Assembly: GCF_902652985.1 (NCBI RefSeq)
Contig: NC_047016.1
Span: 25,234,001 to 25,298,000 of the forward strand
DNA from: Pecten maximus
Lineage: Eukaryota
Length of the DNA stretch: 64,000 nucleotides
Direction of reading: 5' to 3'
The translations under genes and the position numbers were made by a program. Under the pieces are notes generated by a model that worked only from the letters and a program-made list of their open reading frames with translations, made no database searches and was not told the origin of the DNA. Position 1 is the stretch's first letter. Each line of letters opens with the position of its first letter. Below are positions 48,201-51,200 of this stretch, one piece after another.

Positions 48201-51200
48201 CTAATCGTCGTCTGTCTCCAATGTTTTGAGGAAATGGGCCTTCCTCTGTTTCACACGGTCCTCCCTCTGGAGACGGCTCATCTTGGATCGGTTCCACCTG
48301 TAATTACAGAAGCAGATACAACAATGAATGTAGGTAAACATAGAACAAACAAGGATCCTATTGTATTGCCTTTTGTATCAAATATTAGTGTCACATACTA
48401 AGTCACAGACAAACGATTTCTAAGGAATGCTAGTTATCATCTGTCATCCATGATAAAAATGCTTTCACTTAACCCCCATTCTCAACCGTTTTATTTTTCC
48501 CTGCAAAGTCTCAAAATATCAGAAATCCTGCAACCTATGTTCCCCACCTTCCCTCCTTATTTTACACTTTTGCTGTGCAATCAATTCCAAAATTCAACTG
48601 GGTGGCAATTTCCAAGAATGGTCAGGAAAAACACTGGCTCTATATCAAATTTGTGGCCCATTAAAGATCAGGGGTTTTCTTCCTTATGTCTGCATAGCCT
48701 AATAAGGAGCATTGCAGAAAACAAAATAAATTTGCAGTCTCTCTCACCTCTTTACTTTGCCAGATGTTGTCTTCTTGGCCTTTGTTGCACGGTCAGGATT
48801 GGCTCGGATGGCAGCATGACCTTTCTTGTACATCTCTTCAAGCTATTCAAAAACAAGTTTTACCACATGTTATTAAAATGGTTCAAATAAACAGGAATAC
48901 TTGCACTATATGACTCACATAATTCAATCCAAACAAACTTTTAAGATAGCTGAAACTTAGGTTATTGAGCATCAGAATCACATAAATCATGTCCCAAAGG
49001 TCACAACTGATCACCTTAACTAGCCACTAATAAAACATCAATGGTAGTAAAGTTACCAATGTTTACTCTAGGTCAAATGACACGCATGTTTTCATCATTT
49101 TGACTCAACATTATGTCTAATATGAAAAGTTTTGAAAACAAGTGTTTCTAGAACTGCGATTTTCATATGATTCATTACTTTCAGATTTATCATTATTATT
49201 TTAACTATGAAATAATTTGATGTACTTTTGCTTTGCATTTGTGTTTTTTCTTAATTGAATAGGAACTACCAACATATGATGACAAAATTCTGACAAAATG
49301 TTTACAACTATCATTAGCTAAATATGTATATATTATCAAATGGTTCAAATAAACAGGAATACTTGCACTACATGACTCACATAATTTAATTAAAATCAGA
49401 CAATTACTTATAAGATACCCTAAACTTTAGTTATTGAGCATCAGAATCACATAAATCATGTCCTAAAGGTCACAACTGATCACCTTAACTAGCCACTAAT
49501 AAAACATCAATGGTAGTAAAGTTACCAATGTTTACTCTAGGTCAAATGACACGCATGTTTTCATCATTTTGACTCAACATTATGTCTAATATGAAAAGTT
49601 TCGAAAAAAAGTGTTTCTAGAACTACAATTTTCATATTATTCATTACCTTCAGATTTATCATTATTATTTTAACTATGAAATAATTTGATGTACTTTTGA
49701 TCTGCATTTGTGTTTTTTCTTAATTGAATAAGAACTACCAACATATGATGACAAAATTCTGACAAAATGTTTACAACTATCATTAGCTAAATATATATAC
49801 ATTCTATCATTAGCTAAATGTACATACATTTTCTGAGTTGAGGCCATTCTTGATGAACCTAGAGAACTGCCTCTTGTAGGCATCCTCATCCTCTTCCTGA
49901 AGGTGGGCCATATATCCAGCTACATGCTTGCCAAATATATGGTTACGGTGAACCTCGGGGTTGAACTCGTTGCTCTCCCCATCGTATCCAGGGAAGCGCT
50001 TTGTGCTGTGAATGAATCAATTACAAAATTAAAATCTCTCTTAAGTTAAATTCTCTTTTGATATTGCAAGCATCGATTTAAAAACATTTTTAGTAAAAAG
50101 AGTAATCAGATCATCTAAAATCATATCTGAAGGTTAATAACTGGACAAAAACAACAAATGATGACAAAACATCACCATTCATTTCCTGACCAGAACCAAC
50201 CTCCAGTCAAATGACACGCATGTTTTCATCATACTTACTCTTTACTTTCATAAAACACTGCAAGACATTTGTTTCATCAATCTCGTTGTGTATCCTTATT
50301 ATTTAACAATTTTGTGAAATTTCTTTTATTCTTTGCATCAACTTTCAAACTTGACATAAGTCAATATCAATAAGGCTTACAAACACTTAAATCTATGTTT
50401 TCTTAATTCATTTAATGTTGTCTAACAACTTTTAAATTTTTAACAACTTTGAAATGTGATAGAAAAAAGTCACTCCAAATATTTTGAGTGGGCACTAAAA
50501 ATGAATGGATGATCAACCAATACTAGGTGACCGTGGGTAATACAAGATTCTTTCTCACTCAGTTTTATTATATTTATACTTCTTTCTATAATCTAATTAA
50601 TCTTACAAGTGGTCATTCCTACCTTATTACAGTATAATATACAAGCATACACTACATATTATCAGAGGGCGTTACAATGACATTTTATTAGATGTATATA
50701 TTCATCTGGGCAACTAGTACACTTAAGCTAGTTGGTAGTAACATTTTGTCCCAATAAATCCATATACGGTATGCCTTCTTGACAAAATGTACAAATACAC
50801 AGAGGTTTTCCGGGATTATTGATACAACAGGACTCTGAAGAGGCAGTTTAATCAGATCATCCTAAATCATATCCTGATACAAATCACTGAACATCAGAAT
50901 CAGCAGTGATAATACACCACAACTAATGTGAGGACCAGTGTTTACATCAGGTCAAATGACACGCATGTTTTCATCATATTCACCTGCACTCTTAAAAGAA
51001 ATCTGATTATTTCAAAGATTACAATCTTGTGTTTTCTAGCTTCTCTTTCTATAATGAAACACTGATATTAACAAAGTTTTTAAAAATGTCTAACTTGTCC
51101 AAAAATTAAAAAATTAGAGGACCCCACTAACTTTCAGGAAGTCCATTTAAATCATACATAGAGACCATTTACAATCTTGAAAAGACCCAATTCATAAAAT

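What the first reader, a model, noticed from the sequence alone, without database searches (positions are those of the whole stretch)
48965..50981. Four U6-C77 guide snoRNAs (SNORD10-type) stacked two per intron in RPL5
Seen: the block ATGATGAaaacatgcgtgtcatTTGA occurs four times on the RPL5 sense strand, each ~120 nt upstream of a CTGA with terminal stems. Interiors of copies C and D have diverged while the guide is invariant, which suggests purifying selection; A and B come from a recent 469-bp duplication. Known: SNORD10/mgU6-77 uses this one guide for U6 C77 and for a 28S site in the GUGACGCGCAUG segment. In human it is hosted by EIF4A1, not RPL5, and vertebrate introns usually hold one snoRNA each. 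Inference: host switch plus polycistronic intronic processing that would need endonucleolytic cleavage.
Basis: partly seen in the sequence, partly recalled or inferred. Interest (0 to 1): 0.7.

Follow-up and report, generated by a model that had tools for sequence, protein, structure and literature searches.

The report
Stacked U6-methylation guide RNAs in RPL5
Two introns of this animal's ribosomal protein L5 gene each hold two intact copies of a known type of small guide RNA predicted to mark U6 and 28S RNA, and three other genes in the genome stack such guides four to eight per intron, so the copies are likely freed by cutting the intron rather than by the usual one-per-intron trimming.

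Summary
Confirmed. Four SNORD10-type box C/D snoRNA genes lie on the RPL5 sense strand, two in intron 5 and two in intron 6; both introns are spliced as single units in 8 of 8 runs laid. The guide pairs with this genome's own U6 (C77) and 28S site. Boxes, guide, terminal stems and a covarying interior hairpin are kept in all four copies, while flanks have diverged. Rfam scores (23-29 bits) are below the cut-off of 37. The 'host switch' is ordinary: silkworm has this guide in RPL5, and other eukaryotes have it beside RPS8, cyclophilin, BET, vigilin or eIF4A1 genes. The stacking is a habit of this genome: four U18 copies in one RPL4 intron, four SNORD36 in one RPL7a intron, eight snoR38 in one eIF4G intron. 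Inner copies cannot be freed by end-trimming, so a cut between copies is likely but unshown. Intronic clusters are known in flies, worms and rice, and this scan noted the same stacking before in other animal genomes (e1-9523276, e1-9587377).

The parts
48962..49110 (-). snoRNA copy A with terminal stem: box C 49098-49092, guide 49088-49077, D' (TTGA) 49076-49073, interior hairpin, C'-like ATGATTT, box D 48975-48972; box D ends 129 nt before the 3' splice site
   Evidence: 24.5 bits; z -3.2
49431..49579 (-). snoRNA copy B: box C 49567-49561, guide 49557-49546, D' 49545-49542, box D 49444-49441; one base differs from A and keeps its pair
   Evidence: 24.7 bits; z -3.4
50096..50244 (-). snoRNA copy C: box C 50232-50226, guide 50222-50211, D' 50210-50207, box D 50109-50106; box D ends 100 nt before the 3' splice site
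   Evidence: 23.2 bits; z -6.6
50838..50993 (-). snoRNA copy D: box C 50977-50971, guide 50967-50956, D' 50955-50952, box D 50855-50852; strongest terminal stem, farthest from the 3' splice site (846 nt)
   Evidence: 28.7 bits, E 0.0037; z -2.8
48843..49827 (-). RPL5 intron 6 (985 nt, GT..AG), holds B and A
   Evidence: joint in 8 of 8 runs; ends
50006..51451 (-). RPL5 intron 5 (1446 nt, GT..AG), holds D and C
   Evidence: joint in 8 of 8 runs; ends
48876..49806 (.). Tandem duplication of nearly the whole of intron 6: units 48876-49337 and 49338-49806, 93% identical
   Evidence: unit junction crossed by contigs of 5 of 8 runs from 4 studies
49828..50005 (-). RPL5 exon 6, between the two snoRNA pairs
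51452..51654 (-). RPL5 exon 5
48748..48842 (-). RPL5 exon 7
50245..50837 (-). Spacer between D and C, where a cut would have to fall; no strong hairpin
   Evidence: (no window wholly inside it below z -2.3)

Best explanation
Four intact SNORD10-type box C/D snoRNA genes sit two per intron in RPL5 introns 5 and 6, their guide is predicted to direct 2'-O-methylation of U6 C77 and of one 28S cytidine, and each copy is likely freed as a roughly 135-nt RNA by a cut in the spacer followed by end-trimming. Shown: the boxes, the pairing to this genome's U6 (10 contiguous pairs) and 28S (12 pairs, 2 of them G-U), the fifth-base rule landing on C77 and on the C of GUGAC, the constraint on all four copies, and single-unit splicing of both introns. 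Inferred: (1) RPL5 transcription and splicing produce the intron; (2) core proteins assemble on each copy, the upstream copies B and D being helped by their own terminal stems (recalled rule, Hirose and Steitz work not read); (3) an unidentified endonuclease opens the spacer; (4) exonucleases trim to the protein-bound ends. The copies arose by local tandem duplication, A/B most recently, and likely serve as extra dose of one guide.
For: Identity: SNORD10 is the only Rfam family with E under 0.1 in 47500-56500, hitting all 4 copies; these are 4 of the top 5 of 6 genome-wide hits; targets. Constraint: 14 of 43 consensus pairs show two-sided changes, all in the interior hairpin; fold z -2.8 to -6.6. 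A vs B: 1 mismatch in 147 nt inside against 23 in 315 outside (Fisher p 0.0013). The 3 variant calls inside the copies that I checked keep their pair. Splicing: no joint ending inside intron 5 in 8 runs. Need for a cut: 3 of 3 other multi-copy C/D clusters with a protein host have 4, 4 and 8 copies in one intron, and inner copies stay 85-100% alike while most flanks are near 50%. Exon-like or recursive splice sites occur in 3 of 15 spacers against 1 of 6 control stretches.
Against: No mature snoRNA was seen: all 24 runs found were contigs, none raw or small-RNA reads. All copies are below the Rfam cut-off (23.2-28.7 against 37). No cleavage signal or enzyme was identified, and the D-C spacer has no strong hairpin. 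With only two copies per intron, an uncut sno-lncRNA explains RPL5 equally well. Gene conversion could keep copies alike without each being active. The six comparison families were picked from memory, not sampled; 3 of 6 gave no usable protein-hosted cluster. No RNA was laid on RPL4, RPL7a or eIF4G. The 28S site is listed as methylated in human and Xenopus only, not in fly, yeast or Arabidopsis.
Confidence: 0.6

Rival explanations
1. The paired copies are never separated: the debranched intron is trimmed from both ends to give snoRNA-ended long RNAs of about 880 nt (D to C) and 610 nt (B to A), which act as guides or as lncRNAs.
For: This is the documented outcome of two snoRNAs in one mammalian intron, including mouse RPL13A (passages). 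It needs no new enzyme. No cleavage signal was found in the spacers. Sizes.
Against: It does not explain conserved inner copies in the 4-8-copy introns unless they work inside one long RNA. The spacers are not conserved (flanks near 50%).
Confidence: 0.22
2. Only the copy nearest each 3' splice site (C and A) matures by ordinary trimming; D and B are passengers kept alike by recent duplication or gene conversion.
For: C and A end 100 and 129 nt before the 3' splice site, nearer the favoured position of about 70 nt than D and B (846 and 598 nt). B is a recent duplicate.
Against: D is only 56% like C and A inside, yet keeps every box, the guide, its own terminal stem and a hairpin with two-sided changes. 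B differs from A far less inside than outside.
Confidence: 0.1
3. A minor splicing route (poison exon, or recursive or nested splicing) puts each copy in its own intron, with the spliced product lost to nonsense-mediated decay.
For: An acceptor-like site lies at 50835 just after D and donor-like sites at 50622-50380; the 212-nt exon between 50835 and 50622 has stops in all 3 frames. Contigs drop rare joints. Earlier scan notes describe nested snoRNA introns in fungi (e1-7706512).
Against: No such joint in 8 of 8 runs. The B-A spacer has no acceptor-like site. 3 of 15 spacers against 1 of 6 controls carry such sites. The 50835 site overlaps D's terminal stem.
Confidence: 0.08

Closest known systems
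SNORD10 / mgU6-77 (Rfam RF01290)
   Same: Box C, then the guide CAUGCGUGUCAU, D' box, one long interior hairpin and box D; similar length (model 139). Listed as guide for U6 Cm77 (PMC7960923 passage) and for 28S Cm3808/3787 (PMC11014333 Table S4 row).
   Different: D' is UUGA, not CUGA; scores are below the cut-off; four copies in RPL5. The frog gene is in eif4a1 (PMC8609340 legend; the human EIF4A1 host is recalled).
Silkworm Bm-18 (PMC3089462)
   Same: Cloned, northern-validated C/D snoRNA with a predicted U6 target, in an RPL5 intron; its array probe holds the same guide with one base changed, followed by CTGA.
   Different: Reported in intron 1, in a species described as one snoRNA per intron. 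The exact U6 position was in a supplement that could not be searched.
Intronic snoRNA clusters of Drosophila, C. elegans and rice
   Same: Several snoRNA genes, often tandem copies, in one intron of a protein-coding host: five H/ACA copies listed in fly dom, three C/D genes in worm top-2 (PMC11028025 supplement, 32 of 402 places seen); rice clusters seen as a cited title only.
   Different: Fly C/D genes are described as one per intron. Here C/D copies are stacked 2-8 per intron in four housekeeping genes.
sno-lncRNAs (PWS SNORD116 region, mouse RPL13A)
   Same: Two C/D snoRNAs in one intron.
   Different: Those often depend on alternative splicing; here the pairing is in the main splice form. 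Whether the long form accumulates here is untested.

Membership tests
Box C/D snoRNA | Box C (RUGAUGA) near the 5' end and box D (CUGA) near the 3' end | tested here: met
   4 of 4 copies, perfect boxes 126-127 nt apart
Box C/D snoRNA | Terminal stem closing boxes C and D | tested here: met
   Own-flank duplex -8.6 to -12.4 kcal/mol, better than cross pairs; about 6% of random intron pairs reach -8
Box C/D snoRNA | Antisense element of 10 or more nt before D or D', fifth base on the target | tested here: met
   10 pairs with own U6, fifth base C77; 12 pairs with own 28S
Box C/D snoRNA | Accumulates as a discrete RNA bound to fibrillarin, NOP56/58 and SNU13 | not testable with these tools
   Only contig-level data were available
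SNORD10 (RF01290) | Rfam gathering score of 37 bits | tested here: not met
   23.2-28.7 bits. That the model is vertebrate-built is recalled; none of 13 metagenome loci scanned reached any gathering score either
SNORD10 (RF01290) | One D' guide for both U6 C77 and the 28S C3787-equivalent site | tested here: met
   The 12-nt guide equals the Rfam consensus and pairs with both targets; the first two guide bases pair with 28S only and are invariant
SNORD10 (RF01290) | Long hairpin between D' and C' | tested here: met
SNORD10 (RF01290) | Methylation of U6 C77 and of the 28S site depends on it | not testable with these tools
   Needs RiboMeth-seq and knockdown
Polycistronic intronic snoRNA cluster | Two or more snoRNA genes in one intron | tested here: met
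   Joints in 8 of 8 runs
Polycistronic intronic snoRNA cluster | Members released singly by endonucleolytic cleavage | not testable with these tools
   No raw or small-RNA reads; no cleavage signal found
sno-lncRNA | Stable long RNA with a snoRNA at each end | tested here: inconclusive
   Contigs cover the spacers but also run past the snoRNA ends, and contigs cannot show ends or levels

The most novel reading that the evidence does not exclude
This animal makes box C/D snoRNAs from polycistronic introns as a general strategy (2-8 copies per intron in RPL5, RPL4, RPL7a and eIF4G), using an unidentified intron-cutting step that frees inner copies. The four SNORD10 copies, whose interiors can be told apart by sequence, are a ready test bed for finding that step.
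Probability: 0.45. Interest if true: 0.6.

Novelty: new member of a known kind. Interest (0 to 1): 0.35.

Why it matters
The RNA itself is a known guide and its host gene is unremarkable. What matters is processing. How animals free several snoRNAs from one intron is poorly known: a review I read in passages names yeast Rnt1 and frog XendoU and calls knowledge in humans limited. A genome that stacks C/D guides up to eight deep must either cut its introns or run guides inside long RNAs. RPL5 offers copies C, D and A/B with distinct interiors, so one northern or one TGIRT-seq run can decide. The copies also extend the dual U6/28S guide to another invertebrate and are missed at the Rfam cut-off.

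Tried and rejected
Rfam at gathering score found only two tRNAs in the window. My recollection that Drosophila Me28S-C2645 is the homologue and sits in RpL5 was wrong: it lies in Uhg3 and targets another site. The strict-pattern metagenome scan found 0 loci. None of 39 loci from the relaxed scan has RPL5 exons at E 0.01 (six exons in the right frame, exon 2 in a wrong frame; positive control), so RPL5 as the ancestral host is not supported beyond silkworm. Assembly artefact for A/B was rejected: contigs of 5 of 8 runs cross the unit junction. A single-copy allele of intron 6 is suggested by one X3 contig only and is unresolved. In the two random-primed runs, intron cover seemed to cluster between the paired copies, but contigs cannot show levels and some run past the snoRNA ends, so I did not use this. 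X19 (organism C) covered exons only, so no cross-species intron comparison was possible. A scan of all seven RPL5 introns for other rRNA- or U6-guiding C/D snoRNAs gave only chance-level 10-12-nt matches; H/ACA genes were not scanned systematically. SNORD15 gave 0 hits, SNORD33 one weak hit, and the U14 cluster no recognisable protein host. Huang et al. 2005 was not available; PMC6984369 and PMC7541242 held nothing relevant.

Full report
Observation. The 26-nt block lies exactly four times on the minus strand, with no match in 100 shuffles, and a degenerate form has no other match in the 918-Mb genome. The minus strand is the sense strand of RPL5 (Pfam Ribosomal_L5e on exon 5). Contigs of 8 public runs, of 24 listed (2 of the 8 on record as RNA, 6 guessed), all show the joints 48842>49828 and 50005>51452. 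Copies A and B therefore share intron 6 and copies C and D share intron 5. No joint ends inside intron 5. Inside intron 6 there is only a tandem-unit junction in X10. Contigs drop rare forms, so this shows the main route only.

Anatomy. Each copy reads box C, three A's, the 12-nt guide, D' (UUGA), an 80-nt interior, a C'-like AUGAUUU, eight bases and box D; C to D spans 126-127 nt. The interiors of A, C and D are 51-56% alike, about the level of the flanks, yet each folds into one long hairpin (whole-copy z -2.8 to -6.6). In the consensus fold 14 of 43 pairs show two-sided changes, all in that hairpin (four rows, three lineages). Each copy's terminal stem pairs best with its own other end. A and B differ at 1 of 147 positions inside and 23 of 315 outside (p 0.0013). 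The duplication covers almost the whole intron and is real: contigs from 5 of 8 runs and 4 studies cross the unit junction.

Identity and targets. Rfam SNORD10 hits all four copies and is the only family with E under 0.1 in this stretch, but at 23.2-28.7 bits against a cut-off of 37. The guide equals the model consensus. Against this genome's own U6 it forms 10 contiguous pairs with the fifth base on C77. Against its own rDNA it forms 12 pairs, two of them G-U, with the fifth base on the C of GUGAC. SNORD10 is listed for U6 Cm77 (PMC7960923, passages) and for 28S 3808/3787 (PMC11014333, supplement row). That row marks the 28S site as methylated in human and Xenopus only, so its methylation here is open. 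The two 5' guide bases pair with 28S but not with U6 and are invariant, which favours a retained dual role (inference).

Host gene. The frog gene is in eif4a1 (PMC8609340, one legend); the human host is recalled. The silkworm paper PMC3089462 (passages; supplement file 2; file 1 not searchable) places Bm-18, a northern-validated C/D RNA with a U6 target, in RPL5 intron 1, and its probe holds this guide with one base changed. A relaxed metagenome scan gave 39 loci in 8 similarity groups, none with RPL5 exons. A Pfam scan of 150 frames from 6 of the 39 found RPS8 (L020), cyclophilin (L026, L051), an anticodon-binding domain (L035), BET (L032) and vigilin (L050) beside the motif. Only in L032 and L050 does the motif lie between hit exons, and four loci (L021, L034, L053, L054) may be chance. 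The host is labile. RPL5 may be old or reached twice, and the direction of any switch cannot be told.

Stacking elsewhere in the genome. I searched six other C/D families, chosen from memory. Four of the U18 hits lie in one RPL4 intron (one above cut-off; flanking exons meet at human uL4 residues 221-227). Four SNORD36 hits lie in one RPL7a intron (all above cut-off; L7Ae profile 11-46 then 43-85). Eight of nine snoR38 hits lie in one eIF4G intron (three above cut-off; GT and AG ends in matching phase, MIF4G before and MA3 after; continuity of this low-complexity part rests on a recalled motif). U14 gave a cluster without a recognisable protein host, SNORD33 one weak hit and SNORD15 none. Cores are 85-100% alike (the fourth SNORD36 63-66%). 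Most flanks are near 50%, though snoR38 copies 2-6 share flanks and are recent. No RNA was laid on these three genes.

Mechanism. Exonucleases stop at the first protein-bound snoRNA from each end. With two copies this gives a sno-lncRNA, a documented product (PMC11028025, passages and part 1 of 2 of the introduction; PMC5054931, passages; PMC4234469, passages). With four to eight copies, conserved inner copies must be cut free, spliced apart or used inside a long RNA. Splicing apart has little support: exon-like or recursive sites in 3 of 15 spacers against 1 of 6 controls by a crude consensus scan. I put cutting at 0.6, uncut long RNA at 0.22, passenger upstream copies at 0.1 and hidden splicing at 0.08. 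The family and target assignment alone I put above 0.9. No enzyme or cut signal was found, and gene conversion could mimic selection in young copies.

Novelty. Intronic clusters are known: H/ACA clusters in Drosophila, three C/D genes in one intron of C. elegans top-2, and some zebrafish entries (32 of 402 places seen in a stored supplement that was cut). Five paper searches (listings only unless named above) showed no report of C/D stacking as a genome-wide habit in this kind of animal; subscription journals are largely not covered. This scan has noted the same habit in other animal genomes (e1-9523276, e1-9587377), seen after my own; those notes are not independent proof. Verdict: real, well-supported new members of a known family, in a known kind of arrangement whose processing is open. 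Interest 0.35.

Noticed in passing
L077:2891-3979 (G000:C9:13923891-13924979): Four U18-like C/D copies in one RPL4 intron and a fifth in an earlier intron; terminal stems are weak (-1 to -7 kcal/mol).
   Followed up: partly
L078:2027-3845 (G000:C2:25468027-25469845): Four SNORD36-like copies in one RPL7a intron, about 170 kb beyond the window; the 3'-most copy has a different D' guide.
   Followed up: partly
L086:3869-7517 (G000:C16:21802869-21806517): Eight snoR38-like copies in one eIF4G intron, with long terminal stems, and a ninth two introns upstream.
   Followed up: partly
L079 and L080 (G000:C2:40739008-40748742): Five U14 copies 1.2-3.4 kb apart with no recognisable protein exons between them; possibly a non-coding host.
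   Followed up: partly
window 48813-49330 (run X3): One unbroken contig joins the A-side flank to B-type letters; intron 6 may have a single-unit or gene-converted allele.
   Followed up: partly
window 50501-50510: A 10-nt stretch in the D-C spacer is complementary to 28S directly beside the guide's target; one group of metagenome homologues (L025, L036, L043) carries the same words inside the snoRNA. It does not fit an H/ACA pocket, and X5 has a variant in it.
   Followed up: partly
window 49101-49112 and 49570-49581: The 5' terminal stem of A and B is a 12-nt complement of a conserved 18S stretch; within chance for this much sequence.
   Followed up: no
window 56956-57029 and 57209-57282: Two near-identical tRNA genes 253 nt apart upstream of RPL5, with anticodons AGT (Thr) and AAT (Ile): a possible anticodon shift after duplication.
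   Followed up: no
window 52990-53285: Repeat element in RPL5 intron 2, with many loose contig ends and foreign joints.
   Followed up: no
L026:3358-4471 and L027:1620-2733: Two copies of the same guide 1091 nt apart, 3' of cyclophilin exons in another eukaryote; whether they share an intron was not checked.
   Followed up: no
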